IMG/VR virus record: IMGVR_UViG_3300020577_012633
Coordinates: 59,216-123,215 of that record
DNA: 64,000 bases
Direction: 5' to 3' (one strand)
Source: a virus
Lineage: Duplodnaviria > Caudoviricetes
Position numbers and translations under genes: made by a program. The notes below the pieces were generated by a model. It searched no databases, was not told the DNA's origin, and saw only the letters and a list, made by a program, of their open reading frames with translations. Shown here piece after piece: positions 22,235 to 61,574 of this stretch; within the stretch, counting starts at the first letter, position 1; each line of letters opens with the position of its first letter.

Positions 22235-23323
22235 TTATATTCCCAATTTATTCGTCTCTCCAGAATTTCCAAAGAACCAATGTTCATTTGCTGTAACGTG
22301 TCCTTTTCTAACAAATTTTGCTATAGACCTTGAAAAATCTTTATAATGAAAACTATCGGCCAACCGAACAACGTATCCCTCACAGTCCTCACCATTTATT
22401 ACTGGTTTATAAAGTTCTTTAATCGTTTTTTCATTCCATATTCCTCTATAAATAATCGGTACTATTGGAATGCCAAGAAGTTGAAACCATTCGTTAGTTG
22501 TATCCCAATCAAGACAAATTAGATTGTTCCAAGCTGAAATCCCATAGCAATAACTTTCCAAATTCTTATATGGAATGGAATGTTTTGCATAAAGATTTTC
22601 TACAACAAATCTCATGTTCTCAGGAATATCATGACAAATATTCCCGTGAAAATTCTTTATCCAACTTTTTGACCAGTGTTTCTTATCTGCTAAAGAACGA
22701 GCATGAATATAGTCATTATACATTGTTGTATTTTCACCATCCATCTTGATGGTTACTACAACCTCTTTGCCATTAAATATGTCTATATTCTTTATAATGC
22801 GATCATCGTCAGTAGCTCCAGGAGACCAAGGCAAATGCCAAGTTCTTGGATACTTTACATAACGACTAAATAAATTAAGTACATTGCCTTCGTTCAATAC
22901 TTTTTGAACAGAAATATCATCAAAAAGCTCGCCTCTGAGTCTTGTCCCATTGGGCATAATAGGATTAGCCCATTTATCATACACTTGATCATCGTAAAGA
23001 TGTTCTGGTATAATCTTATCTTTTTCTAGGATTCCGCAAGCTGCTCTAATCTCTTCAACACATAAAATTGTCATTTCAGCTTTGATATGACATTCAGGGC
23101 AAAGGCTAGAGCCGTTGTTGATTAGATATCCACCGAAAGTTTCCGGGTCTATCCATAGTCGTCTTTCTAAGATATGATGAGCATCGAGATTCGTCTTAGT
23201 TGATGTCTTAAGACAAATAACGCATTTGTGATCATCACGAGCAAAAACCTTCTCTCTAAATTCGTTTCTAGAAAGAATTTTCCGTGACCGATTTACATAG
23301 TTGTTTGAATTTGACTTCATCAA
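22235..23323 (-). CDS. HNH domain fused to ATP-dependent RNA ligase (start uncertain)
   Basis: CVIC..AHHI..LCPECH; KYPRTWHLPWS, KMDGEN, EGYVVR, AKFVR. Confidence 0.85.
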   Translation of the reverse strand: MMKSNSNNYVNRSRKILSRNEFREKVFARDDHKCVICLKTSTKTNLDAHHILERRLWIDPETFGGYLINNGSSLCPECHIKAEMTILCVEEIRAACGILEKDKIIPEHLYDDQVYDKWANPIMPNGTRLRGELFDDISVQKVLNEGNVLNLFSRYVKYPRTWHLPWSPGATDDDRIIKNIDIFNGKEVVVTIKMDGENTTMYNDYIHARSLADKKHWSKSWIKNFHGNICHDIPENMRFVVENLYAKHSIPYKNLESYCYGISAWNNLICLDWDTTNEWFQLLGIPIVPIIYRGIWNEKTIKELYKPVINGEDCEGYVVRLADSFHYKDFSRSIAKFVRKGHVTANEHWFFGNSGETNKLGI

Positions 23324-38021: not shown

Positions 38022-38104
38022 AACTAGATTCCTCCTAGTTATGAATTACTGTATTATAATGGAGCAGTCCTCTAAAAAATGGAGGAAAGCTCATGTATTT
38101 TTAC

Positions 38105-38452
38105 TGGAGCCGAGGGGAATCGAACCCCTGTCTTTAGCGAATCTTTCAAGCGTTACTACAAGTTTGTTTGATGATTTATCTTATCTCAATGTCTATCATC
38201 AACGAACATACATTGAGAGCATTTTTCTCTTATCTCAAACTGACTTAATGAAAAAGGTTTGGGTCAGTTCCAGCAGATGTTTTTCGCTAAACTCATTATC
38301 TGCGTCAAAAATTTAGCGGGTAGCCTTAATTAGGCTGCCATTGCGAGAGTGCTGTTGCCAGCTAGTTTTTTGCATACTTTTTACGAGTCCAGCATGCTCC
38401 TCGACTTGCAACGTTCTTGTCTAATCCCTAAATCGAATACCAGTACGGCCCC
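38105..38452 (-). ncRNA. ssrA: tmRNA, predicted tag (A)GNSTLAMAA*
   Basis: GGGGCCG/CGGCTCCA acceptor with G3.U70, T arm, internal ORF GGC AAC AGC ACT CTC GCA ATG GCA GCC TAA. Confidence 0.92.
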
Positions 38453-49642: not shown

Positions 49643-50410
49643 TTAATTCGCAAATAATTCCTTCACTTGCAAAGCTGTAGATCGAACACTTCTGAACAGA
49701 TTCAACTGAGGCTCAATAATGTCATAATACAGATCATCAAGCTTATCCTTTTCAACATCCTCAGGGATAGAACTCTTCTCAAGTTCAATTGGCACTTGAG
49801 CATCCAGTTCTTCATAACGAGCTTTTACAACTTCAACAGGAATCTCTCCATGACGAACCTGACGAAGAAAATCCGCGTTAGGCCTAGGAAAAGTAATCGT
49901 GCCTGTCTGTAGAAGCTCAATACACTCTTCAAGCAATCTTACTGCATGGTAAGCATTCTTAATACTGTAACCATAAGCAACAATATGCTCTTTACGTTGC
50001 GCTCCAAGTTTTCTCATTTGCTCGAAATAATCTACAGCCTTTTTCCACTCTCCAAAAGCAAAACCCTGCATTGGCTTAATAAGCTTTTTAGAAACAAATA
50101 GATGTTTATTATCAATTAGTTTCTGACCAGCTTCAGTAATTTCAAGAATATGTTCTTTCGGCGCAAAAAGAATTTCTGCCGTATTAGGACTGAAACGTTC
50201 AAGCAAGTTAAAAAACTTAGGAAAAGACCATATTACTGTATCTGGATCTTTACTTTCATACTGATCCCAGTGACGACGGCCAAGAAGATATTCAGCATAA
50301 GGCACCGCAAAACCGCGAGTATCAATGTCGCTTGTTGGCGTGCTACATCCATAAAGATGAGAACCAGTTCTGACTAGCAAGTCTGGTCTCTTATAAAAAT
50401 CAGCTATCAT
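49643..50410 (-). CDS. Pol-beta superfamily nucleotidyltransferase (RlaP/YcgL-like)
   Basis: GSHLYG..TPTSDIDTRG, PN..EIL, HAVRLL. Confidence 0.85.
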   Translation of the reverse strand: MIADFYKRPDLLVRTGSHLYGCSTPTSDIDTRGFAVPYAEYLLGRRHWDQYESKDPDTVIWSFPKFFNLLERFSPNTAEILFAPKEHILEITEAGQKLIDNKHLFVSKKLIKPMQGFAFGEWKKAVDYFEQMRKLGAQRKEHIVAYGYSIKNAYHAVRLLEECIELLQTGTITFPRPNADFLRQVRHGEIPVEVVKARYEELDAQVPIELEKSSIPEDVEKDKLDDLYYDIIEPQLNLFRSVRSTALQVKELFAN

Positions 50411-50502
50411 AACTTGGTCCTCCTTTCTTCTATGAAATCAACTATTTGAACTTTTGGTTTATCAAATATTCTAAGCAATCTTGTAATAACTCGCAAAAAA
50501 AG

Positions 50503-51071
50503 TCAAGGTGACAGGATTCGAACCTGCGGACTCGTGGACCCTACCATATAAAATCATTAGCCCATTTAATATTCTTTTTTTGCCCGTTTTTAGGCTTTTC
50601 AATTCTCACGCATAACATTCTTTTATTTTCAAATTGTTCTGGCCCAAAACACAGGATTTTATCTATTTTTGGAACATAAACAAGAACTAAATCAATATCT
50701 TTTGAAGAATAAGTATCATGTTTATATTTAGTAAGAGCTGTTTTTCTTGCCATTTCAATTCTAACAGAACCTTCACTATCTTTAGATACTTTCCCGTCTC
50801 CATATTTACATTGAATCTTTAGTATTTTGCCATTATTTTCAATAAGTAAATCGTACACTGATTCTGTTGTGGGTATTGATACTATGAAATCTTTTTCCAT
50901 AGCTCTTTGTTGTATCTTAAGCACTGCTAACTGACCTTTATTATTTGTATTCATTTAAATTCCTATATTAGTATTAGAACCTTGTGGTATAGTTACATAG
51001 GGTTATTGAATATCCTTCTTATACAAATAAAATTACTAACCACGCACTCTACCAAGCTGAGCTACACCCTG
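50503..51071 (-). tRNA. Split tRNA-Pro (reconstructed AGG); halves 51036-51071 and 50503-50543
   Basis: Halves join to CGTGG-TTAGGGT-CCACG; TAG duplicated at the junctions. Confidence 0.8.
50541..50954 (-). CDS. PD-(D/E)XK endonuclease (I-Ssp6803I-like family)
   Basis: KGQLA, VSIP...YDLLIE..KIQCKY, IDLVLVY. Confidence 0.8.
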   Translation of the reverse strand: MNTNNKGQLAVLKIQQRAMEKDFIVSIPTTESVYDLLIENNGKILKIQCKYGDGKVSKDSEGSVRIEMARKTALTKYKHDTYSSKDIDLVLVYVPKIDKILCFGPEQFENKRMLCVRIEKPKNGQKKNIKWANDFIW

Positions 51072-51594
51072 AAAACTTAAGCCTCACTCATACCAATTAA
51101 CATGTAACTTTTTCAATCTCGCAAGCTGTATGATAGTCCTTATCAATAGCTGATTCAATCTCATCCATTTTTTTCAAATAACATTCTATAAGATCAGGAT
51201 CTTCTAGACCATCAACAATATTAGACAAAGAAATCATTTCATCAAGACCTGCTACAGTCTTAAGGATATATTCTTTTTGCAACTGAATAAGCTTTATTTT
51301 CTTTTCGTTATTTTGATTAGTGCTACTCATGTAACATTAATCGTCTTATTTTTTACGAGATTTTAGGCTATCACGCCATTTATCGCTTGTATGATATTGC
51401 CACAAATTACATTTTTTACACTTATAGCCATGTTCATATATCTTTTTCTTTAAATTCAAAATACTAACTAAAGGGTGCAATGCACATTTAACATAAGTCA
51501 TTGTTTTTTTACAATTAGCACACTTTACTAATGTATTTTCATCTACATCTATTACTCGATATAGATTATTCTTTTTACGGATAGATCCCATAAG

Positions 51595-51668
51595 TCAGAA
51601 TAACAGGATTTGAACCTGTAGCCTTCTCGTCCCGAACGAGATGCTCTACCAAATTGAGCTACATTCTG
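51595..51668 (-). tRNA. tRNA-Pro(CGG)
   Basis: TCTCG-TTCGGGA-CGAGA. Confidence 0.9.
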
Positions 51669-51675
51669 AATTTAT

Positions 51676-51981
51676 TTATGAAGAAACTTTTTGAATGGCT
51701 TCTTTTATTTTGGCCTCAGTCTGAAGACCAACTAGCTTTTCAGCAAAAACTCCATCTTTGAAAATTACAATAGAAGGAATAGATGTTACATTATACGTTT
51801 TTGCAAGATCTGTATTTTCTTCAACATTCGCTTTCAAAAAGGTAACATTTGATATTTCTTTAGAAAGCTTTGTTAGAAGAGGCATAAGCATTTTACATGG
51901 CATGCACCAATCTGCCCAAAAATCAACAACAACTATAGGATAGTCTGAAGGTTCAAATTTAGATTCTATTATTTCTTTCAT
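51676..51981 (-). CDS. trxA: Thioredoxin
   Basis: DFWADWCMPC, SIP. Confidence 0.9.
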   Translation of the reverse strand: MKEIIESKFEPSDYPIVVVDFWADWCMPCKMLMPLLTKLSKEISNVTFLKANVEENTDLAKTYNVTSIPSIVIFKDGVFAEKLVGLQTEAKIKEAIQKVSS

Positions 51982-52006
51982 TTTTTACTCACAATAACGA
52001 ACAAAG

Positions 52007-52081
52007 TCAGGGAGACAGGATTCGAACCTGCGACTTCTTGGACCCAAACCAAGCGCTCTAGCCAAGCTGAGCTACACCCTG
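52007..52081 (-). tRNA. tRNA-Pro(TGG)
   Basis: CTTGG-TTTGGGT-CCAAG. Confidence 0.93.
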
Positions 52082-52161
52082 AAAGCCCGTCCTTGATTCT
52101 GGTCACTCTTTCGAGGAGAGCAGAGACGGGAAGTCAGCACGCGTGCTGACATTATATGTTG

Positions 52162-52288
52162 CTGACAAATATAGGGCCGTATCTAGGAGTTTCAGAATAC
52201 TGGAAGCCATTGCTGGATAGTCTCTTTATCTGAGTCATAAAGACCACTTCTACGCATAATGTTAACCTAGAAAACATCGACTTGTCAG
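52162..52288 (-). ncRNA. Y-RNA-like ncRNA
   Basis: CTGACAAGT/ATTTGTCAG closing stem, GTCGA-N9-GGTTAACA. Confidence 0.65.
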
Positions 52289-52304
52289 TGACTACTAAAA
52301 CTAA

Positions 52305-52435
52305 AGACAAATATGTTGTTGCATTTAGCGATCTCAGAAACTGTACCTCATTCCGAGGCTAGGTCATCTCTGATGAACAACCTACTGAACGAACTTCTCC
52401 TATTAGTATGTTAAGCTAAACGCTCCGACTTGTCT
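52305..52435 (-). ncRNA. Y-RNA-like ncRNA
   Basis: AGACAAGT/ATTTGTCT closing stem, GTCGG-N8-GCTTAACA; GTCGATA motif just upstream. Confidence 0.65.
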
Positions 52436-52647
52436 AATAAAGTATCGACATTTCTATAAAGAAATCTCGAACTACACGCTTTTCAACCTTGGGCCGCTAC
52501 AACATTTCCTTTATCATCATATATCAAAACTTTACCATTTTGATCCACTCCAAAAACTCTTTTCCCTTTTGGAGCTTTTAAATCTGTTTCATATTTTTTA
52601 GTCTTATTATTGAACTTTACATTAACTTGTTTGGCTTTTTTCATAAG

Positions 52648-52720
52648 TGGAGACTACGGGAGTCGAACCCGTGACCTTTTGCATGCCATGCAAACGCTCT
52701 GCCAACTGAGCTAAATCCCC
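52648..52720 (-). tRNA. tRNA-Ala(GGC)
   Basis: TTTGC-ATGGCAT-GCAAA; G3.U70. Confidence 0.93.
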
Positions 52721-52744
52721 AAAAAGGAGGGATAAAACCCTCCT
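52721..52744 (-). terminator. Intrinsic terminator after the RF gene
   Basis: AGGAGGG/CCCTCCT hairpin followed by TTTT. Confidence 0.7.
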
Positions 52745-52749
52745 ACTAT

Positions 52750-53500
52750 TTACTTCAATATGATATCAAGATTTCCCTTTATAACATCTTTGATATCATA
52801 TGTTTTCTTGCCTGTCAAATGATCAGAAACATAGCCCTTATAGAAACAATAAGTTCTTCTAGCTCCGCCTCTTCCTGTATTGCTGAGAATGTTTTTACGC
52901 TTTTCAGCATAATCCTTATTTTGTTCAGCAAACTTCATTTCTTGAATACGTCCGCACAGAAGCTCATAAGCATGAGCTTTATTCTGCTGAGGAGAACGAT
53001 GAACCTGAGACTTAACAAAGATTCCTGTTGGAATATGTTTCATTCTACATGCACTCTTGCATGTATTAACTCCTTGACCACCTGGTCCTGAAGCATTTTG
53101 AAACATAATCTCAATGTCTTCGTCTCTAATAATCGCTCCTTTGAAAGCAAATATTGGCAAGATTCCAACTGTTACAGTTGAAGTATGACGACGACCGCTT
53201 CTTTCGGAAGGAGGACATCTTTGAACAACATGCTTGCCTGATTCATTTTCAAAAGCAGATAATACATTTTTACCGCTTATTTCAAGAGTAGAAGAACCGT
53301 AATCAACATCAACAATCGAAATGGTTAGGTTCTTCTTTGTTGCGTATCTAACATATATTTCGGAGAGTTCGTGAACAAAGTTTTTAGCATCTTCTCCACC
53401 CTCTCCTGCTCTTATTTCAATAAGAATAGAAGAAGGGTCAAAGAGACTCCTGTGCCTTATGCTGAAGGCCATCGTTCCAGCGATTTCTGTTACTATTCAT
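52750..53500 (-). CDS. Class I peptide release factor homolog (lacks domain 1) with a predicted +1 programmed frameshift
   Basis: EIRAGEGG, GRRHTS, GPGGQ; AGGAG-TCT-CTT-TGA-C at 53451-53437 in frame with ATG 53500. Confidence 0.85.
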
Positions 53501-54107
53501 AGCAAAACCCTTTCAATTAAAAGTCCACTGGCTTCTTGCAAAAATAACAAGACTACGGTTCGCTTGCCGCTGCGCTACATCGTTGTTTTCATATTGAAAA
53601 CATTAGGTTCTTTAATTGGATGAATGCTGGCGACATCCCCACTCCACTGAACTGTTCCAATACAAAATAAATGGAACTTAGGCTCTCCATTAACTTCTTT
53701 TTCTACTGTCCTGGCTTTTGCATGTATATGAACTTCAGAAGCTAAATGCTCAATATCATTTATGACAACTCTCCATTTGCGACCTTCTGGATCATTTTGC
53801 CATTTGGTATTGAATCTCAAAAGTATATTATCATATTCTATCATGGTAATTCATTTTTTGCTTCTACTTCAATTTCTCTTGAAGAATAACATTCTGATAT
53901 TAATCGAAAATGTTGTATTTTTGGGCCACCAAGACCTTCATATGTTGCAATACGCAGTCCTTTAGTATTATATCCACGAGGAATTCTACAAACAACATTA
54001 TCTTTTGGACCAAAAGGATCTGAATCTTTTTCTATAGACCAACAAAAATCTCCAGCTAAAAGAAGTATTCCATCTTTTGTTATAGGAAGAGACTTTTTCA
54101 TAGTAAA

Positions 54108-54178
54108 CTGACCTACTAGGATTCGAACCTAGGCAACAGACTCCAAAGGACTGCGTGCTACCGTTACACCATAGGTCA
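54108..54178 (-). tRNA. tRNA-Gln(TTG)
   Basis: Loop CTTTGGA, cloverleaf. Confidence 0.9.
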
Positions 54179-54376
54179 ATATAATTATCTTCTTTTGGAA
54201 GACTTTATAGCAAGAAGTGCTTCTTGCATTTTTCTCTTAAGTCTAGCTTGTCTTTTACGATGCCTTTTTGCTGTATTCTTTTGCTTACTTGTCATTTCTT
54301 GCCTTTCTGATTAATTTCTGCGCCAGAAATATAATCATCGTATACATATGATGTAAAATTCAACCATTCACCAAAA

Positions 54377-54447
54377 TAGCCCGACAAGGATTTGAACCTA
54401 GACTAATTGAATCAGAATCAACTGTGCTACCGTTACACTATCAGGCT
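54377..54447 (-). tRNA. tRNA-Gln(CTG)
   Basis: GTTGA-TTCTGAT-TCAAT. Confidence 0.88.
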
Positions 54448-54733
54448 AAAACTTTCCAAACCATTCTTTTACGCTGCCGTCATTCCTGTCGTCTTCATCT
54501 TCTTGCGACATTCTTTCAAACTCTTTTTCTTGATTCTTGTATGCTTCATCATTGAATATTTTCATCATTCTTATGGCATGAGCGTATTTAGAACAAGATT
54601 CTTTATGACCAAAAGCAGGCTCTTCGCTATTATTACAAGTCATTTCTTTGCATTCATCGCATCGAATCTTCCATTGACTCATAACAGCAAAATATGCCTG
54701 CTTCTTTTCTTTATCAGAAATCTCTTCCATAAG

Positions 54734-54807
54734 TGGACCTGACGAGCATCGAACTCGCTTCCTCAACGTTGCGAACGTTGCGCTCTACCCAACTGAGCTT
54801 CAGGCCC
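54734..54807 (-). tRNA. tRNA-Ala(CGC)
   Basis: CAACG-TTCGCAA-CGTTG; G3.U70. Confidence 0.9.
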
Positions 54808-54811
54808 AAAA

Positions 54812-54872
54812 ACCAGTATGTTTGTGAAATAAGGGGTACGTTACAAGTGATAACCTTATTTCTTCGACTGGT
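54812..54872 (-). ncRNA. Minimal Y-RNA-like hairpin
   Basis: ACCAGT-CGAA-GAAATAAGG...CCTTATTTC-ACAAACAT-ACTGGT. Confidence 0.65.
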
Positions 54873-55081
54873 ATTTATTTCAACGACGGTGATGATAGTA
54901 AGAATGAGAATGATAGTAGTACGGAGCTGGTTGCACAAAAATTACAGTTCTTGGAGGTGGGCAATAATATGGCCCACTATCAACAACATAAGTTGTACAA
55001 CCTGTTAAACTCAAACCACAAACTGCTAACAAAAGAAAACAAACTAGTTTTTTCATATCTTCCCCCAAATATACTCTAAAG

Positions 55082-55154
55082 TGGAGCCTGCGAGATTCGA
55101 ACTCGCCGCCTATTGCTTGCAAAGCAATCGCTCTACCAAATGAGCTAAGACCCC
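55082..55154 (-). tRNA. tRNA-Ala(TGC)
   Basis: ATTGC-TTTGCAA-GCAAT. Confidence 0.92.
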
Positions 55155-55172
55155 AATAATCTATCAAACAAT

Positions 55173-55541
55173 TTATTTCTTATTTGATTCTCTTTCTTCC
55201 CAATGTAATTTTTTATGACAATTTGAACACAGAACGTCACACTTTTTCATTTCTTGTTTTATTCTTTTTAGAGAATAACCGTTTTTAATAGCCCAACTTA
55301 TTTCAAAGTCCTTTTCTGCTGAGTCTCTATGATGAAATTCTAGACAAGCTACATGACATTCGGAGCATTTTGCGCAACCATTTATTGTCTTAAATCTATT
55401 TATATATTCGTATCCAATTTTCATGTACTTATCTCTAAGAATAGATGAATTCTTGATATGCTTTTTCTTGTTTTTCTTATACCATTCTTTTTGATATTTC
55501 TTCTGGTAGGCTTTATGGTCTTCAATGTTTTTGTATGGCAT
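55173..55541 (-). CDS. Free-standing HNH endonuclease between tRNAs
   Basis: CAKC, LEFHH, CDVLCSNCHKKLH. Confidence 0.85.
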   Translation of the reverse strand: MPYKNIEDHKAYQKKYQKEWYKKNKKKHIKNSSILRDKYMKIGYEYINRFKTINGCAKCSECHVACLEFHHRDSAEKDFEISWAIKNGYSLKRIKQEMKKCDVLCSNCHKKLHWEERESNKK

Positions 55542-55596
55542 AATTTATATGTCCATATAGGACTTTTGAGTTTATAACTTCAATTTTACTTTCAAA

Positions 55597-55669
55597 TGCG
55601 TTCGGAGGGAGTCGAACCCTCAACTTCGGGCTTAAAAGGCCCTTACTCTGCCAATTGAGTTACAAACGC
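55597..55669 (-). tRNA. tRNA-Lys(TTT)
   Basis: Loop CTTTTAA, cloverleaf. Confidence 0.9.
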
Positions 55670-55742
55670 TATCTTTTACCATCATCGTCAGTCTGTTTTC
55701 GACATTTCATTGCAACACCATTCCTTTTTATATAAACACAAA

Positions 55743-55814
55743 AGCGGCTTCAGGGATCGAACCTAACTTGGGAGATAATGACTCTCCCCAGACCACCAAG
55801 GCCTAGCCAACCGC
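55743..55814 (-). ncRNA. Atypical tRNA-like RNA (6-bp D stem, loop GTCATTA)
   Basis: GCGGTT/AGCCGC, TAGGCC/GGTCTG, GGAGA/TCTCC, GGTTCGATCC. Confidence 0.55.
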
Positions 55815-56095
55815 ATCTTAATCATCTGATTGATCAAACTCAGAATCATCAGATATGTCAAAAGCTCTTGTATAATTTATTCCAATAAATTTAGAAACAT
55901 CCTCTAAGATTTCATCTATTTCTATATGCTCATTACCTTCATTACCGTGATATTCACCAGAAGCTACCTCAAAAAGCATATGCATTTTAGAAATCATTTC
56001 TTGTAAAATCTTTGATACATCCTGAAGACTTGGATCTTCATTATATTTGATATTATTTTTTAATAAATCAATAGCTTCTTGTGGTTTTATCATAA

Positions 56096-56170
56096 AGCTC
56101 CCGGTGGGACTTGAACCCACACACTTCAGTTTTGCAGACTGAGCCATTTGTCCAATTCTGGTACAGGAGC
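56096..56170 (-). tRNA. tRNA-Cys(GCA)
   Basis: TCAGT-CTGCAAA-ACTGA; U73. Confidence 0.9.
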
Positions 56171-56571
56171 AATTCTAAACTAACACCATTTATTCTTATT
56201 CTTATGAAGGGCATTTCTTTTGTTATTTATAAAACTTCGCGCCTTTTTTATTGCAACTTCTTCTGGAAGATTTTGTAGTTTCTTTATTTCTTCTAAGCTT
56301 TTCTTAACTTTATTTGGATCGGTTGAAAGATTTGCAATATATCCAATAACAACAGCAAGCGTTATTCCATTACCTTTAGCATGAGGGCTTGCCCAATCCC
56401 AAATCTTGTCAAAAATTCTCTGTTGAAAAGCAATAGCTTTCCAATTGATTTTAACTTTACAATTATTTTTCTTTCTAAGCAAACGAATTTCTTTTATTTG
56501 TTTAGAAAGAACCTTTTGTTGTTTGAGAAGTTCTTCCAATCGTTTCGATATTTCATCTTGCTCATTCATAA

Positions 56572-56642
56572 AGACCAGATCAGGAATCGAACCTGCGATA
56601 TCAGTTTTGCAGACTGAACCCTTACCACTCAGGCATCCGGCC
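56572..56642 (-). tRNA. tRNA-Cys(GCA)
   Basis: TCAGT-CTGCAAA-ACTGA; U73. Confidence 0.9.
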
Positions 56643-56645
56643 AAT

Positions 56646-56790
56646 AGCTAGTATATTTAATTGGTCTGGGGTTAGCTCTCTAATCTTTCGACTTTGAGAG
56701 GTGCCTTACCGTTAGGCTACCCCGCCATATTTTCAAAAGGCGGGGATAAGATTTGAACTTATAATGTTAACCCATTCCATTCGACTAGCT
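56646..56790 (-). ncRNA. YrlA-like Y RNA (circularly permuted tRNA mimic)
   Basis: Order: stem with GTCGAATG, T arm, closed acceptor CCCCGCC/GGCGGGG, D arm, 3' stem. Confidence 0.8.
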
Positions 56791-56825
56791 GAATTTAGTT
56801 ATCGGCTTTTCAGCCAAAACTAACT

Positions 56826-57143
56826 CTATTTCACTCTTTTATTCCAAGCCTTCACAGCATCTCTTACTAACCAAGCTTCCCAAGGTTCTTTTTTAGAACC
56901 ATTCTTACTATTAGTTACTACGACCTTAGCAGGACATTTTGTACAGAAAGCTTTGACTACTTTATATGAGTCTGTAAAGACTTCGCCGGAATCCCATGAG
57001 CTGTGCCAATTCCTTTCATAATCAAGCTTAATATCAGGTTCTTTGTTGCCGCAAAATGGACAAGGTTTAAGATTACGATGAACTACAGTAAACTTTTGCG
57101 TTCCAACCTTGCTAGTATCAAGATATTCTATATTAGTTTTCAT
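56826..57143 (-). CDS. Lar-like (restriction alleviation) zinc-ribbon protein
   Basis: LKPCPFCG..CTKC..AWNKR. Confidence 0.7.
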   Translation of the reverse strand: MKTNIEYLDTSKVGTQKFTVVHRNLKPCPFCGNKEPDIKLDYERNWHSSWDSGEVFTDSYKVVKAFCTKCPAKVVVTNSKNGSKKEPWEAWLVRDAVKAWNKRVK

Positions 57144-57604
57144 AAACTCAATATATCCCAAGCAGCAGATGCAGCTATAGGACGACTCTTATAAGTACAT
57201 TGACCCGTATTTTCATTTTCAGCCCACCACCAATAGCAGCCAGCTTCGATTTTATGTAAAAGTCTCCAGCCATGAAGTTGTAAAGTGGACCAACAAGAAG
57301 GAAACAAGTCTTCCCTTATTACATCAATCGTTTCAGCTTGAATAATCATTTCTCATCACCATAATCAATTAATTTGCCTTTTTCTATCGTATAGCGGCAG
57401 TTCTCGTTTTGATAACCAAAAACTTTATCAAGTATTTTCTTTTCTTTAAGAGTTATTTCGCCTACATGAAAAAGACCAAAAATATATCCTTGACAAAAAT
57501 CCATAGTTGATTCATGTCCAAGAGCTAATCTATCTGTAATGTTTTTCAACTTTGTTGCATTTTTGTCAATATTCTTTTCGCTTTTATTCATTATTTTTGA
57601 CATA

Positions 57605-58252
57605 CTAAATATTTCCTTTTGGGTTACTCAGAAACAAAAGTTGTTCTCTATCAGAAGTATGATGCTCATATTGTATGGGCCTAGTTTCTACATGATTGAA
57701 CATATTCTCAAACATAGAAATAGGATATAAACCTTCTCTTACTCCAAATACCATTTTACAATCTGGAGTAGCAATCTTTAATATATTTGGCATTATATCT
57801 TCAAGAGGATAATGATATCCTGCACTCAAAAATGACATAATAAAATCTACTTTATCAAGCTTATCAAAACTGTCAACTTCAACATTGAAACATTCAATGT
57901 TTGTGAGATTGTTCATTATGCAGAATTTTTCTGTCATTGATAAATCGTTATATATTCTTTTATTTCTAGAAAAACCGAACATCTTACTATTTATTTTAGC
58001 AGGAAAAGTATTTCCGTCTGCAAGTATGAATCTAGTATCATTCAATTCAGCAACATTTTTTACATAAACAGACATTCTTCCTAATCCGCAACCAATTTCA
58101 AGTAATCTTTTTGGTTTGCCAATAAGGTCAGAAAAAGCAGAATATTCAGCTCTTGATATTTCATCATATGCAGATTTATCAATGTGCAATTGAGAAACAT
58201 GAGCCAAAGCTATTTTCATAAAAGGGGTTGGTATGTCAAATACAAAAAGCAT
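57605..58252 (-). CDS. Class I SAM-dependent methyltransferase
   Basis: LLEIGCGLGR, SFLSAGYHYP. Confidence 0.75.
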   Translation of the reverse strand: MLFVFDIPTPFMKIALAHVSQLHIDKSAYDEISRAEYSAFSDLIGKPKRLLEIGCGLGRMSVYVKNVAELNDTRFILADGNTFPAKINSKMFGFSRNKRIYNDLSMTEKFCIMNNLTNIECFNVEVDSFDKLDKVDFIMSFLSAGYHYPLEDIMPNILKIATPDCKMVFGVREGLYPISMFENMFNHVETRPIQYEHHTSDREQLLFLSNPKGNI

Positions 58253-58255
58253 AAG

Positions 58256-58343
58256 CGGAAGCGACAGGATTCGAACCTGTGGGACTTTTTACATCCGTCA
58301 CCTTTCCAAGATGATGCATTAAACCAGACTCTGCCACACTTCC
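58256..58343 (-). tRNA. tRNA-Ser(GGA)
   Basis: Loop TTGGAAA, long variable arm. Confidence 0.92.
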
Positions 58344-58638
58344 AAAAGACAATTTATTCAAACCACTACTTCCAAGGATCATTTTCTATTTCTGCTCTAT
58401 TTGACATAATCTCGTCAATATTTTCTATTTGATTTCTCAATTTTGCATCAATTTTATCTATAAGTTCCCAAACTTCTTTAGAATACTTATCGTATTCTTT
58501 CTTTGTTAGAAGTTTAAGCCTTCTATCAAAAATTCTTTTTGGATATGTTGTTCCAAGATGAAACATAAGCAACCTGAAAAATTCAAGATGATCTGTTTCA
58601 GCAGCTATTGGTGGTTGTCTTTTTTTCTTTTTCATAAG

Positions 58639-58730
58639 CGGATGGTGTCAGAGTTGAACTGACGGTCGCCTATTAAAGACGACGGCGGTTTAGCAAACCG
58701 CTGGGAAAAACCGACATTCCCGTACCATCC
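58639..58730 (-). tRNA. tRNA-Ser(GCT)
   Basis: GCGGT-TTGCTAA-ACCGC, long variable arm. Confidence 0.88.
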
Positions 58731-59740
58731 ATTCTCAAATGCTAAACTCATGCTTAGCATAAACCTTAATTTCTTCTTCGTATTTTATTCGACTAGAAAT
58801 GATATTCTTTATTTTTTCTCTATCTCTTTTTTGCGTCTTAAGATAATCTTCGTCTCCTCTTGATGAACAAGGATAATCGGTAACATCTCGTATTTTTGCT
58901 ATTCTAATAAACTCAGTAGGAGATAAAAGCCATTTTTCTTTTGTTACTGAAACATCATAAACATTATAAGTACAGGAAGCTCTAACCTTGTTCTTTGTTC
59001 TATAAACAAAATATTCAGAATATTTATCAGGGTATATTGCGCTAAAACAACATGAAATAGAGGGAGCAACGCAAATTCTCTTTATGTCTGGTTCTCTTTG
59101 ATCAGCATTAACAATGCTTCTAGGAACAAAAGTATAACTAGAACCAAGATTTTTAGGAGTAACATGATAATAATATCTTGAAATTTTGCTCTTTATTATT
59201 TTTCGCATAAAATAAAAATCGACAAAGAATATTCACAATATTATACTTTCACAGTATCAAAAAAATAGCTATTCCCCAAAATCATTCCATCTTATTAATG
59301 GATTCCAACTAATATTTAGTTCGTCAAAGAATTCTCTATTAAAACCATCATCTTCAATCTGATCAAACTTCCAATGTGTTTGATAGCCTATCTCTCTAAG
59401 AATATCTTTAATATTCTGCAAAGCCTTGCGATTTCTTTTATTATATTGACTTTCAAACTGACGAACACCAATCTGTACTGAACAAGAATCATGAAGATCA
59501 AGAATAGCACAAGATATAGAAGCTGAAACTTTTAAAAGCATTTCTTGGTAAGCTTTTTCATAGAGAAACTCTTCAGATTCTACTTTTTTTGTTTCTCTTT
59601 TATTTTCAGACTTAATTCTTTCTTCACGAGCTTTTTCTAATTTTTTGCGAGCAGTATCAGCAGTCATTAGTTCAATAGATATTTTATCCATAATCACAAA
59701 TCGACTTAAACTTAGCTTACTGATACAAATTCACCATAAG

Positions 59741-59883
59741 TGGAGACGGTAGGAGTCGAACCTACAATAGTCCTTATCGGACAACCCGGTGTACAGTCGG
59801 GCTTGCTCGCCTTTTCTTTAGCATAATACAACTGATTATTCTAAAGATTGGAACTCGCTTTAGCTTATCCTTGCCGCGTCCCC
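59741..59883 (-). tRNA. tRNA-Tyr(GTA) with large D-arm insert
   Basis: GGGGACG/CGTCTCC, loop CTGTACA, variable arm GTCC/GGAC, T arm. Confidence 0.7.
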
Positions 59884-60183
59884 GTCAATTCAATAGTCTT
59901 TCGAAAGACTACGATACCTCTCTGAACAACATTTCGGATCAACTGCATCTATCCCTGGAATCAAAAGCGTAAAATTATGACTCTTTGGGAAATACTTTAT
60001 CCCGAACCAACCAGTTAAAGGAAAAACAAACCACATCAAAAGCAATTGTCTTCTTACTGTAATATATCCATCCAAAGCAGGATCAACCTTTATCGCAAGC
60101 CTTACAAAAAACCATTGTAAGATAAAAAAGTTTACGAAACCCATAAGAAGCGGTGTTTTTTCATTATTTTGCATATATTCCCT

Positions 60184-60687
60184 TTATGATGGTAATTCTA
60201 AATGTAATTTATCTTGATCTAGGCCGTATTTGGTTGGAGGAGCATTCTTTTTAAGCTGAACCATAGCATTATCGTTTATCAGCTCGGCTTTCGTCGCAAA
60301 GCCTCTATAAGTAAACCTAGCCCCATCTTTCAAACTGCCAGTCATAAGAACATAGTAATCGTTTTCACCAGTGCAATGAGGAGCAGCTAAAAGCCTCCCA
60401 TTTGGATGCTTTGTCTGTTTGACATCGACCTTTTTTCCAGATGGAAGTAAAAGATCCACTCCGCCTTTTCTAGCTCCAATACTAAGATCAGGATACAAAT
60501 TCATTAACTTTGCAAAAGCAAGTTCTGCTGCAAAGCCATCAGTATCAGTTTCTTCATTAGATTGATCGCCAATCTTTTTGTTTTCAACACCAGACGCTCT
60601 TGCTGTCTGATACCTTGCACGGCCAAAAGATACACAAAGCTTTTGTTCATACTCTTCAAGAATTATTTCTATTGGAGCTTTTCTCAT
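60184..60687 (-). CDS. PD-(D/E)XK-like nuclease fold protein
   Basis: AELAFAK, GVDL, VDVKQT. Confidence 0.55.
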   Translation of the reverse strand: MRKAPIEIILEEYEQKLCVSFGRARYQTARASGVENKKIGDQSNEETDTDGFAAELAFAKLMNLYPDLSIGARKGGVDLLLPSGKKVDVKQTKHPNGRLLAAPHCTGENDYYVLMTGSLKDGARFTYRGFATKAELINDNAMVQLKKNAPPTKYGLDQDKLHLELPS

Positions 60688-60770
60688 ATTCTTTTATCGC
60701 CAAAAAAAGAATATTACTCTGCAATCCACAAGCTTCCTCCCGGAATCGAACCGAGTTATCTGAGATACGA

Positions 60771-61433
60771 TTACTCAGACCATCTAGGACAATGAAATTT
60801 ACCGTATTCCTGTATCGCTCCAAACACCATTTGAACTATTTCGGTGCTATGAACGGAAATTATACAAATACCATATGGAAGTTTGGTTTTATTTTGTTTT
60901 TTAGGATAATATTCGCTTTTTATTGTTACTTTTCTTTTGTTTTGAGAAAGAAGATTAAGTGACTTTTTCCAATATTCTTCTACTTCTTCAATAGAAAAAC
61001 CACAATCGAGCCTGCAATTAACTTTCCATATAACCTCTTTACTGGATATATTGAAATGTTTTTGCAAAAAATCTAAAAACACTTTTAACAAGTTGCAATC
61101 AGAATTACAAATTTGTAAACTATTGCGACCTTTTGATCCTTCACCCCAGTAAAGCATGCAACCTGCTATAAAACTTGGATCAAGTTTACGAGCAATGGAT
61201 GCCCCCATTTTTTGCCACTCAAGTCGCTTTGCTAAAGCATCAGAAGATCTTTTTACAGAAGCCATAGTTGAACTTCTTTTTAGTAAAAAAATTTTCTGTT
61301 CCTCAGAAATTAGAATTTCTCTAACCCATAAAGAAACACTAGACTTAGAAACATTAAGAATAGAAGCAATTTGAGTTATTGAAATACCAGATTTCCTGAG
61401 TTCTATTGCTTTATTTTTTAACTTCTTTTTCAT
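60771..61433 (-). CDS. HTH + LAGLIDADG-like endonuclease
   Basis: N-terminal HTH (IASILNVSKSSVSLWV), AGCMLYWGEG, NSD..L. Confidence 0.65.
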   Translation of the reverse strand: MKKKLKNKAIELRKSGISITQIASILNVSKSSVSLWVREILISEEQKIFLLKRSSTMASVKRSSDALAKRLEWQKMGASIARKLDPSFIAGCMLYWGEGSKGRNSLQICNSDCNLLKVFLDFLQKHFNISSKEVIWKVNCRLDCGFSIEEVEEYWKKSLNLLSQNKRKVTIKSEYYPKKQNKTKLPYGICIISVHSTEIVQMVFGAIQEYGKFHCPRWSE

Positions 61434-61499
61434 TTGATACTCTCTTTTTAGAACCTTGTGCTATAGTTATATACTAGGAGTATCATATGAATCCTTCAA

Positions 61500-61574
61500 A
61501 GTTCTTGGCAGGACTTGAACCCGCAACCTCCTTATTACGAGTAAGGCACTCTACCAAAATTGAGCTACAAGAAC
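61500..61574 (-). tRNA. tRNA-Thr(CGT), carried inside the insertion
   Basis: CCTTA-CTCGTAA-TAAGG, complete cloverleaf. Confidence 0.92.

What the first reader, a model, noticed from the sequence alone, without database searches (positions are those of the whole stretch)
50974..61473. 26-bp motif shared upstream of two unrelated tRNA-inserted endonucleases
Seen: TAT(G/A)TAACTATA(C/G)CACAAGGTTCTAA on the minus strand at 50974-50999 and 61448-61473, 24/26 identical. Each is preceded by GAAGGAT and lies 14-19 nt before the ATG of a nuclease from a different fold. GGTTCTAA resembles a T-loop. Inference: a common promoter, element end or processing signal that defines one cassette family with interchangeable nucleases.
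Basis: partly seen in the sequence, partly recalled or inferred. Interest (0 to 1): 0.7.

Follow-up and report, generated by a model that had tools for sequence, protein, structure and literature searches.

The report
Shared leader of two phage homing-nuclease cassettes
Two unrelated selfish nuclease genes that have each split a tRNA gene in a giant phage share a 26-base stretch, which is the tip of an RNA hairpin that hides each gene's translation start; this is a known way for phage homing nucleases to be kept quiet, so the finding is real but fairly ordinary.

Summary
The 26-nt motif is real: 24/26 identical, on the minus strand at 50974-50999 and 61448-61473. These are the only two copies in the 123-kb record.

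Both copies lie in the 5' leaders of nuclease cassettes inserted in the anticodon of a tRNA gene. One splits tRNA-Pro(AGG) and carries a PD-(D/E)XK nuclease. The other splits tRNA-Thr(CGT) and carries an HTH plus LAGLIDADG-like protein and a replacement tRNA. Related huge phages have an intact tRNA-Pro(GGG) at the first site.

The motif is not a clade-wide promoter. It is absent from five related records, including a 98%-complete 494-kb genome, and from IMG/VR. It is also not a T-arm, a ribozyme part or a bulge-helix-bulge signal.

The deeper conservation lies elsewhere. Two further PD-(D/E)XK cassettes in relatives share the GAAGGAY box and a hairpin that pairs the leader with the ribosome site or start codon, through different sequences. 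The 26-mer is the apical part of that hairpin in this genome's two cassettes.

Best reading: a modular translation-control leader of the T4 I-TevI/segB type, recently shared between two cassettes. Whether the loop also holds a promoter is untested. It is a new member of a known kind and of modest interest.

The parts
50974..50999 (-). 26-nt motif, copy 1 (apical part of the site-1 leader hairpin)
61448..61473 (-). 26-nt motif, copy 2 (apical loop of the site-2 leader hairpin)
51012..51018 (-). GAAGGAT box of site 1, at the 5' foot of the leader hairpin. The same box (GAAGGAT/GAAGGAC) heads PD-(D/E)XK cassettes in related phages (L109, L102).
61491..61497 (-). GAAGGAT box of site 2, 2 nt after the cassette tRNA. 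Here it also serves as a Shine-Dalgarno-like sequence for a 12-codon upstream ORF (ATG 61486, stop = TAA of the motif).
   Evidence: read from the sequence
50941..51030 (-). Site-1 leader hairpin. The outer helix pairs 51030-51021 with codons 2-5 (50950-50941). The inner helix pairs 51001-50995 with the SD region 50968-50962.
   Evidence: MFE -13.8 kcal/mol, z -2.1; start-site accessibility 0.34, rank 21/179
61429..61491 (-). Site-2 leader hairpin. UUCAU.UGAUACUC pairs with GAGUAUCA.AUGAA, burying the SD and the AUG.
   Evidence: z -2.3 to -3.0; -16.5 kcal/mol, 0/1000 shuffles, rank 2/179; accessibility 0.28, rank 7/179
50541..50954 (-). ORF1, 137 aa, PD-(D/E)XK nuclease of the I-Ssp6803I family (Pfam PF11645)
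   Evidence: E 2.6e-25
60771..61433 (-). ORF2, 220 aa, N-terminal HTH plus a LAGLIDADG-like domain (FIAGCMLYWGEGS). It belongs to a large family that is nearly always next to tRNA genes.
51036..51071 (-). 5' half of the split tRNA-Pro(AGG) (C1, D arm, 5' anticodon strand, TTAG)
50502..50540 (-). 3' half of the split tRNA-Pro(AGG); it begins 1 nt after the ORF1 stop codon
61577..61614 (-). 5' half of the split tRNA-Thr(CGT)
61500..61574 (-). complete tRNA-Thr(CGT) carried inside the site-2 insert, directly upstream of the leader
60731..60770 (-). 3' half of the split tRNA-Thr(CGT), preceded by the duplicated TCGTAT (60765-60770); it abuts the ORF2 stop codon

Best explanation
The 26-mer is the apical (loop) segment of a modular 5' leader that controls translation of homing-nuclease cassettes in this clade of huge phages. 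The leader starts with a purine-rich GAAGGAY box. The RNA that follows folds back onto the nuclease's own Shine-Dalgarno region and start codon. In read-through transcripts of the tRNA array the nuclease is therefore poorly translated. Translation needs the hairpin to open or to be bypassed, for example by a transcript that starts inside the loop, by a ribosome loading at the GAAGGA box (standby site, or the site-2 upstream ORF), or by RNA cleavage. The stem sequences are specific to each cassette because they must match each ORF's start region. The loop has no such constraint. It is nearly identical in the two window cassettes because the leader was recently copied or recombined between them, placing the same leader in front of two unrelated nucleases. 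Shown here: the motif itself, the cassette context, the empty site in relatives, the GAAGGAY box and the hairpin in four cassettes, and the low predicted start-site accessibility. Inferred: that the hairpin represses translation, how it is relieved, and that the identity reflects recent exchange rather than a sequence-specific loop function.
For: (1) Both copies sit in nuclease leaders inside tRNA-splitting inserts. (2) All four leaders fold into a hairpin enclosing the SD and/or AUG: window S1 z -2.1, S2 z -3.0, L102 z -2.6, L109 z -7.0. The paired sequences differ in each: UUAUUUGUAU/AUACAAAUAA plus CCUAUGU/AUAUAGG; UGAUACUC/GAGUAUCA plus UUCAU/AUGAA; ACUUUCUC/GAGAAAGU; GGAUUC..UAUAU/GUAUAUGAAUCC. 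(3) Predicted accessibility of positions -14..+5 is 0.28 for ORF2 (rank 7 of 179 ORFs) and 0.34 for ORF1 (rank 21 of 179), against a genome median of 0.51. It rises to 0.57-0.82 when the 5' strand is left out. (4) The duplex between the 5' spacer and its cognate start region is -16.5 kcal/mol at S2 (0/1000 shuffles, rank 2/179) and -10.0 at S1 (7/1000 shuffles). (5) GAAGGAT or GAAGGAC heads all four leaders, although the PD-(D/E)XK proteins are only 31-34% identical. (6) The 26-mer is absent from those relatives, from a 98%-complete 494-kb relative and from IMG/VR, so it is local to this genome. (7) Viral relatives of ORF2 have analogous SD-sequestering hairpins with AT-rich loops, and one loop contains TATAAATA. 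(8) There is published precedent. RBS-sequestering hairpins with an internal late promoter are described for I-TevI/II/III, segB (in the T4 tRNA cluster) and Aeh1 mobE (PMC2988022). Conserved 5'-UTR hairpin motifs shared by GIY-YIG and Vsr-like gene-splitting nucleases are described in PMC2677866.
Against: The site-1 hairpin is weak. Its duplex energy ranks only 41 of 179 against the genome background, and the swapped pairing (S2 5' strand with the S1 start region) is just as good. All structure evidence is predicted thermodynamics in AT-rich RNA. No promoter consensus was found in the loop, so the T4-style relief mechanism is unproven. With only two copies, selection on the 26-mer cannot be told from recent copying. 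The sharp contrast between 24/26 identity in the loop and an indel-ridden spacer could also mean that the loop has a sequence-specific function I have not identified.
Confidence: 0.6

Rival explanations
1. The 26-mer is itself an internal promoter (middle or late class, for a phage-modified or phage-encoded RNA polymerase). Its transcripts would start inside the hairpin and free the ribosome site, exactly as in T4 I-TevI and segB. This is compatible with the best explanation and differs only in giving the loop sequence a specific job.
For: The position matches the T4 paradigm. A transcript starting in or after the motif raises predicted start-site accessibility to 0.57-0.82. The block is promoter-sized and TA-rich at its 5' end. 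Some ORF2-family leaders contain clear promoters: TTGACA-17-TATAAT in L068, TTGACA-17-TAATAT in L025 and TATAAATA in L004.
Against: No sense-strand sigma-70-like site was found at either copy. There is no TATAAATA. No further copy exists in 123 kb of this genome or in the 494-kb relative. The motif differs from the genome's two recurrent promoter-like motifs, CTAGACTT and GYCGATA. The loops of the homologous leaders L102 and L109 share no sequence with it. The 123-kb fragment holds no recognised late genes, so a late class cannot be fully excluded.
Confidence: 0.2
2. The motif is the 3' part of a short upstream ORF (leader peptide). Translation of this ORF would melt the hairpin and couple ribosomes to the nuclease start.
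For: At site 2 the layout is GAAGGAT, then 4 nt, then an ATG opening 12 codons (MILLVYNYSTRF) that end at the motif's TAA, 14 nt before the nuclease ATG. The upstream ORF's ATG lies in the 5' strand of the hairpin (read from the sequence). The same frame is open at site 1.
Against: Site 1 has no ATG, GTG or TTG in that frame (only ATA), and an in-frame TAA lies immediately upstream. Both motif differences are non-synonymous. L102 and L109 have no equivalent upstream ORF. A peptide-degenerate search of IMG/VR found only 5 irrelevant hits.
Confidence: 0.07
3. The motif is a DNA operator, bound for example by the HTH domain of ORF2, that represses both cassettes. This would resemble I-TevI autorepression at an operator that mimics its homing site.
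For: ORF2 has an N-terminal HTH. ORF2-family leaders in bacteria carry a palindrome, CGAACATATGTTCG, on the start codon. The motif contains GGTTC, as do many family leaders. I-TevI provides a precedent.
Against: The motif has no dyad symmetry. It has no significant similarity to either reconstructed target tRNA. The PD-(D/E)XK cassette would then depend on another cassette's protein. The motif is absent from relatives.
Confidence: 0.05
4. The motif is an RNA processing or splicing signal that lets the insert be cut out of the pre-tRNA, with the halves rejoined by the phage RtcB ligase.
For: The tRNA halves are intact and pair well. The genome encodes RtcB, an Rnl-type RNA ligase and an RlaP nucleotidyltransferase.
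Against: No bulge-helix-bulge geometry gives a correct tRNA at either site. No group I, group II or small-ribozyme match was found. The motif shows no excess complementarity to the rest of the pre-tRNA. Site 2 carries its own replacement tRNA, which would make splicing unnecessary. The motif is missing from the analogous cassettes L102, L109 and L006.
Confidence: 0.04

Closest known systems
Translational-control hairpins of T4-type homing endonuclease genes (I-TevI, I-TevII, I-TevIII, segB in the T4 tRNA cluster, Aeh1 mobE); review PMC2988022
   Same: A leader directly upstream of a phage homing-nuclease ORF folds so that the ribosome site and start codon are paired in read-through transcripts. 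segB likewise sits among tRNA genes.
   Different: No TATAAATA or other recognisable promoter was found in the loop. A conserved GAAGGAY box at the 5' foot has no described T4 counterpart. The nucleases here are PD-(D/E)XK and LAGLIDADG-like rather than GIY-YIG or HNH. The cassettes sit inside tRNA anticodon loops, not between genes or inside self-splicing introns.
Conserved 5'-UTR hairpin motifs of gene-fracturing free-standing endonucleases (Dassa et al. 2009, PMC2677866)
   Same: Nucleases of different families (there GIY-YIG and Vsr-like) that split host genes share hairpins and conserved nucleotide motifs in their 5' UTRs.
   Different: There the motifs form the two strands of the stem and often include TATAAATA. 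Here the shared 26-mer is the loop and the stems differ. There the host genes are protein genes rescued by split inteins. Here they are tRNA genes, one rescued by a replacement tRNA.
I-Ssp6803I, the PD-(D/E)XK homing endonuclease of the Synechocystis tRNA-fMet group I intron (Pfam PF11645; from my own knowledge of the literature, not re-read here)
   Same: ORF1 belongs to the same Pfam family and also sits in the anticodon loop of a tRNA gene.
   Different: No group I ribozyme is detectable, and only about 80 nt of non-coding sequence is available.

Membership tests
Phage homing-endonuclease translational-control leader (T4 I-TevI/segB type) | An RNA hairpin pairs the Shine-Dalgarno region and/or start codon of the nuclease ORF with upstream leader sequence | tested here: met
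   the hairpin is predicted in all four GAAGGAY-type leaders (z -2.1 to -7.0). Start-site accessibility ranks 7/179 and 21/179. The signal is strong at site 2 and weak at site 1.
Phage homing-endonuclease translational-control leader (T4 I-TevI/segB type) | A promoter lies between the hairpin strands, so that its transcripts lack the 5' strand | tested here: inconclusive
   No sigma-70-like or TATAAATA site lies on the sense strand of the motif. The phage's own promoter classes are unknown. No transcript data are available.
Phage homing-endonuclease translational-control leader (T4 I-TevI/segB type) | Temporal (late) restriction of nuclease translation | not testable with these tools
   This needs infection time-course data.
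Shared 5'-UTR motifs of gene-splitting endonucleases (Dassa et al. 2009) | A nucleotide motif is conserved upstream of nucleases from different families that split a host gene | tested here: met
   The 26-mer lies upstream of a PD-(D/E)XK and a LAGLIDADG-like ORF. The GAAGGAY box occurs in four cassettes.
Shared 5'-UTR motifs of gene-splitting endonucleases (Dassa et al. 2009) | The conserved motifs form the complementary strands of the hairpin stem | tested here: not met
   The 26-mer is apical. Only its first 5 nt enter the site-1 inner helix.
tRNA T-arm / T-loop | A GTTCRANYC loop closed by a 5-bp complementary stem | tested here: not met
   No complementary 3' stem follows GGTTCTAA in either copy. 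The 11/13 similarity to a T-arm holds for copy 1 only, p about 0.05. There is no tRNA hit in Rfam or ARAGORN.
Sigma-70-type promoter | -35 and -10 hexamers with 16-18 nt spacing on the strand of the downstream gene | tested here: not met
   Searches find no sense-strand site within either motif copy. An extended -10-like TGnTATAGT exists only on the opposite strand (read from the sequence).
Group I intron (for the inserts that carry the motif) | A conserved catalytic core (P3-P9), a U at the end of the 5' exon and a G at the end of the intron | tested here: not met
   No Intron_gpI hit appears at gathering score or at E<=10 / E<=5. Only about 80 nt lie outside ORF1. At site 2 no junction register gives both the U and the G (read).
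Archaeal-type bulge-helix-bulge intron | Two 3-nt bulges separated by a 4-bp helix at the two splice sites, yielding a correct tRNA | tested here: not met
   One search finds no such geometry at site 2. The six chance geometries at site 1 do not give a tRNA.
PD-(D/E)XK_5 / I-Ssp6803I family (ORF1) | A Pfam PF11645 match above the curated cut-off over the full length | tested here: met
   89.5 bits against a cut-off of 26.1, covering residues 1-135 of 137.
LAGLIDADG homing endonuclease (ORF2 C-terminal domain) | An alpha-beta-beta-alpha-beta-beta-alpha fold with a LAGLIDADG helix ending in a catalytic acidic residue | tested here: inconclusive
   The sequence FIAGCMLYWGEGS has an invariant E98. 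VIA-align matches to I-DmoI, E-DreI, I-MsoI, I-CreI, WhiA and intein endonuclease domains reach Z 4.4-7.4, which lies within the tool's noise band. Foldseek and HMM searches of the PDB were negative. There is no Pfam LAGLIDADG hit.

The most novel reading that the evidence does not exclude
The shared leader (GAAGGAY box plus 26-mer) could be a recognition signal for protein-dependent RNA processing. That processing would release the nuclease mRNA from the pre-tRNA and let the phage's RtcB or RNA-ligase repair set rejoin the two tRNA halves. This would amount to ribozyme-free tRNA splicing in a bacterial virus.
Probability: 0.04. Interest if true: 0.85.

Novelty: new member of a known kind. Interest (0 to 1): 0.35.

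Why it matters
The result shows that mobile nuclease cassettes in huge phages are modular. A small regulatory leader (GAAGGAY box plus a hairpin that hides the start site) can be combined with nucleases of unrelated folds. It also gives a sequence handle for finding such cassettes in tRNA arrays. The regulatory principle is already known from T4, so the gain is incremental. The more unusual biology lies in the cassettes themselves: they insert into tRNA anticodons without a ribozyme, and some bring a replacement tRNA. That is the subject of separate findings.

Tried and rejected
1. General promoter. There is no other copy in G000. Sub-k-mers of the motif are not enriched upstream of 179 ORFs. 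The motif is absent from five related records, including the 494-kb genome. An exact search of IMG/VR was empty.
2. Intact tRNA homologue by pattern in IMG/VR: empty. Intact homologues were later found through synteny.
3. Upstream ORF conserved as a peptide: a degenerate search gave 5 hits, all irrelevant.
4. Mimic of the homing site: not significant.
5. Third partial leader copy at about 61665-61640: its score of 29 lies inside the shuffle range of 32-38.
6. Long-range pairing of the motif with the rest of the pre-tRNA: no better than shuffled motifs.
7. Bulge-helix-bulge and group I models: rejected.
8. Sequence and Foldseek searches of the PDB for ORF2: only the HTH matched.
9. GenBank phages: no ORF2 homologue. 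Only distant PD-(D/E)XK homologues were found.
10. Other occurrences of GAAGGATTCWTAT in G001 (L113, L115, L116): these lie in ordinary coding context and are not cassettes.
The contigs of the closest homologues (P0003 and P0004, 54-57% identical to ORF2; P0122, 69% identical to ORF1) therefore could not be read.
13. Earlier scan notes held no look-alike of the leader in other genomes.

Full report
**Observation.** The motif is exactly as described. Its two minus-strand copies lie at 50974-50999 and 61448-61473 and are 24/26 identical. No other copy with up to 3 mismatches exists in the window, and 0 of 100 shuffles gave two matches. None exists in the whole 123,215-bp virus record either. CheckV rates that record 24% complete, so the phage is roughly 500 kb. 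When the two regions are compared with each other, the motif is the only significant local similarity (E 2.7e-6). In a genome-wide Smith-Waterman scan only the reciprocal leader exceeds shuffled queries. GAAGGAT precedes both copies, and the nuclease ATGs follow 19 and 14 nt after the motif.

**Context.** Both copies lie inside inserts that break a tRNA gene in its anticodon.

- Site 1 is a 495-nt insert in a tRNA whose halves are about 90% identical to the window's own tRNA-Pro(TGG). The tRNA has C1:G72 and rebuilds the loop TTAGGGT, so it is tRNA-Pro(AGG). ARAGORN's Thr(AGT) call is wrong.
- The site-1 ORF is a 137-aa PD-(D/E)XK nuclease of the I-Ssp6803I family (PF11645, E 2.6e-25).
- Site 2 is an 812-nt insert in a tRNA-Thr(CGT). 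It contains a complete but different tRNA-Thr(CGT), then the leader, then a 220-aa ORF.
- The site-2 ORF has an N-terminal HTH and a C-terminal domain with the sequence FIAGCMLYWGEGS. Its AlphaFold model (pLDDT 90.5) repeatedly matches LAGLIDADG domains, but at Z 4.4-7.4, which the tool warns is within noise. Foldseek and sequence searches of the PDB were negative. I call the domain LAGLIDADG-like with moderate confidence. The two proteins have unrelated folds in any case.

**The ORF2 family.** The family has more than 700 members. In 78 of 84 loci examined the gene lies within 300 nt of a tRNA gene, typically 27-60 nt downstream of a complete tRNA. One viral locus, L006, repeats the site-2 layout: tRNA 5' half, complete tRNA-Gly(GCC), leader hairpin, nuclease, and further on the 3' half.

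**Empty sites.** Using the RlaP gene next to site 1 as a probe, I found eight loci from related huge phages, 78-85% identical in protein. They include a 494-kb record rated 98% complete. Their tRNA arrays are syntenic. Six of them carry an intact tRNA-Pro(GGG) directly upstream of RlaP. It aligns column for column with the joined window halves. An intact tRNA about 85% identical to the joined site-2 halves also exists in relatives. The inserts are therefore insertions of mobile cassettes and not ancestral introns.

**What the motif is not.**

- It is not a clade-wide or genome-wide promoter. It has no further copy in 123 kb here, none in five related records including the near-complete genome, and none in IMG/VR. 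It also differs from the genome's recurrent promoter-like motifs CTAGACTT and GYCGATA.
- No sense-strand sigma-70-like site or TATAAATA lies in it.
- It is not a T-arm. No complementary stem exists, and the similarity to a T-arm is marginal.
- Neither insert matches any ribozyme or intron family in Rfam. Neither can form a bulge-helix-bulge structure that would yield a tRNA.
- The motif has no excess complementarity to the rest of the precursor and no significant likeness to the target tRNAs.
- At site 2 the GAAGGAT box and an ATG open a 12-codon upstream ORF that ends at the motif's TAA. Site 1 lacks a start codon in that frame, both motif differences are non-synonymous, the relatives lack such an ORF, and a peptide-level search found nothing.

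**What is conserved.** Two relatives carry PD-(D/E)XK cassettes whose proteins are 31-34% identical to ORF1.

- In L102 the cassette follows a tRNA 5' fragment broken at anticodon position 34, and a complete tRNA-Gly(GCC) follows it.
- In L109 the cassette follows a tRNA 5' fragment broken at position 34 and then a complete tRNA-Lys(TTT).
- Both leaders begin with GAAGGAC or GAAGGAT.
- All four leaders fold into a hairpin that encloses the leader and pairs its 5' part with the Shine-Dalgarno region and/or start codon, through different sequences in each. The z-scores are -2.1, -3.0, -2.6 and -7.0.

In this genome the two nuclease start regions are among the least accessible of 179 ORFs (ranks 7 and 21; accessibility 0.28 and 0.34 against a median of 0.51). 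Removing the 5' strand raises accessibility to 0.57-0.82. The cognate duplex is very strong at site 2 (-16.5 kcal/mol, 0/1000 shuffles, rank 2/179). It is only moderate at site 1 (-10.0, 7/1000 shuffles, rank 41/179). The 26-mer forms the apical part of the hairpin in the two window cassettes. The spacer between GAAGGAT and the motif is homologous but full of indels, and it is the part that pairs with each ORF's own start region.

**Model.** The cassettes carry a modular translation-control leader: a GAAGGAY box followed by a hairpin that sequesters the start site. The 26-mer is the loop of that hairpin. It is nearly identical in the two window cassettes because the leader was exchanged between them fairly recently, while the stem adapted to each ORF. 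The signature of that chassis is the GAAGGAY box and the hairpin, not the 26-mer. The GAAGGAY box is probably a ribosome standby or loading site, or another cis-element at the foot of the hairpin; this is inference. A promoter in the loop, as in T4, remains possible and is the main rival or sub-hypothesis.

**Comparison with known systems.**

- Gene-splitting nucleases of different families are already known to share 5'-UTR hairpins and motifs (PMC2677866).
- The present case is therefore a new member of a known kind. Its new details are the GAAGGAY box, the huge-phage tRNA-anticodon setting, and the pairing of PD-(D/E)XK with LAGLIDADG-like nucleases.

**Limits.**

- All structure evidence is predicted.
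- Only two copies of the 26-mer exist, so selection cannot be separated from recent copying.
- The 123-kb fragment holds no recognised late genes, so a late-promoter class confined to the missing three quarters of this genome is not excluded. The near-complete relative, however, has none.

Noticed in passing
window 60771-61433 (ORF2); loci L003-L088: ORF2 belongs to an uncharacterised family of more than 700 proteins (HTH plus a LAGLIDADG-like domain, with no Pfam model for the latter). In 78 of 84 loci the gene lies within 300 nt of a tRNA gene. In soil bacteria it usually sits 27-40 nt downstream of tRNA-Gly(TCC), or next to tRNA-Glu(TTC) with a CGAACATATGTTCG palindrome on the start codon. 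In phages it is wedged between tRNA genes.
   Followed up: partly
window sites 1 and 2; L006 2829-4036; L102 4647-5165; L109 about 1385-1500: Five independent cassettes break a tRNA gene at anticodon positions 33-35. Three of them carry or abut a complete replacement tRNA (Thr-CGT, Gly-GCC, Lys-TTT). The pattern suggests nucleases that cut tRNA genes in the anticodon and travel with a resistant tRNA allele.
   Followed up: partly
L101 7730-7804, L102 2297-2371, L104-L107 7557-7631: Related huge phages carry an intact tRNA-Pro(GGG) at the position of the window's split tRNA-Pro. The window allele reads AGG, so G34 was changed or lost at the insertion.
   Followed up: yes
G000 genome-wide; in the window on the minus strand at 54246, 31817, 16574 and 7596: CTAGACTT is the most enriched 8-mer within 90 nt upstream of ORFs (8 observed against 0.8 expected). 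It is a candidate phage promoter element unrelated to the 26-mer.
   Followed up: partly
window 50985-50993 (+) and 61459-61467 (+): The reverse complement of the motif contains TG(G/C)TATAGT, an extended -10-like element. It points away from the nuclease ORFs, antisense to the leader 5' part and to the tRNA upstream. This was seen post hoc and not tested.
   Followed up: no
L111 and L112, 524-605: In two relatives ARAGORN calls a tRNA with a four-base anticodon (aggt) next to tRNA-Thr(TGT). It could be a tRNA with an 8-nt anticodon loop.
   Followed up: no
G000:1929-3203 (RtcB), G000:31219-32859 (Ro60 TROVE+vWA), window 22235-23320 (RNA ligase), window 49643-50410 (RlaP), window 38102-38452 (tmRNA): The fragment is rich in RNA-repair and translation genes: RtcB, Ro60, an RNA ligase, an RlaP nucleotidyltransferase, two aminoacyl-tRNA synthetases, a tmRNA and a release-factor-like ORF. 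No recognised structural genes were seen.
   Followed up: no
window about 50567-50582 (-) and about 60701-60716: A 16/16 exact inverted match, CAAAAAAAGAATATTA, links the 3' end of ORF1 with DNA just downstream of the site-2 3' tRNA half (E 4.5e-4). The sequence is A-rich and the match may be chance.
   Followed up: no
window 51018-50954 and 61497-61433: The distance from the first base of GAAGGAT to the ATG is exactly 64 nt at both sites, although the 26-mer is shifted by 5 nt within it (12+19 against 17+14).
   Followed up: no
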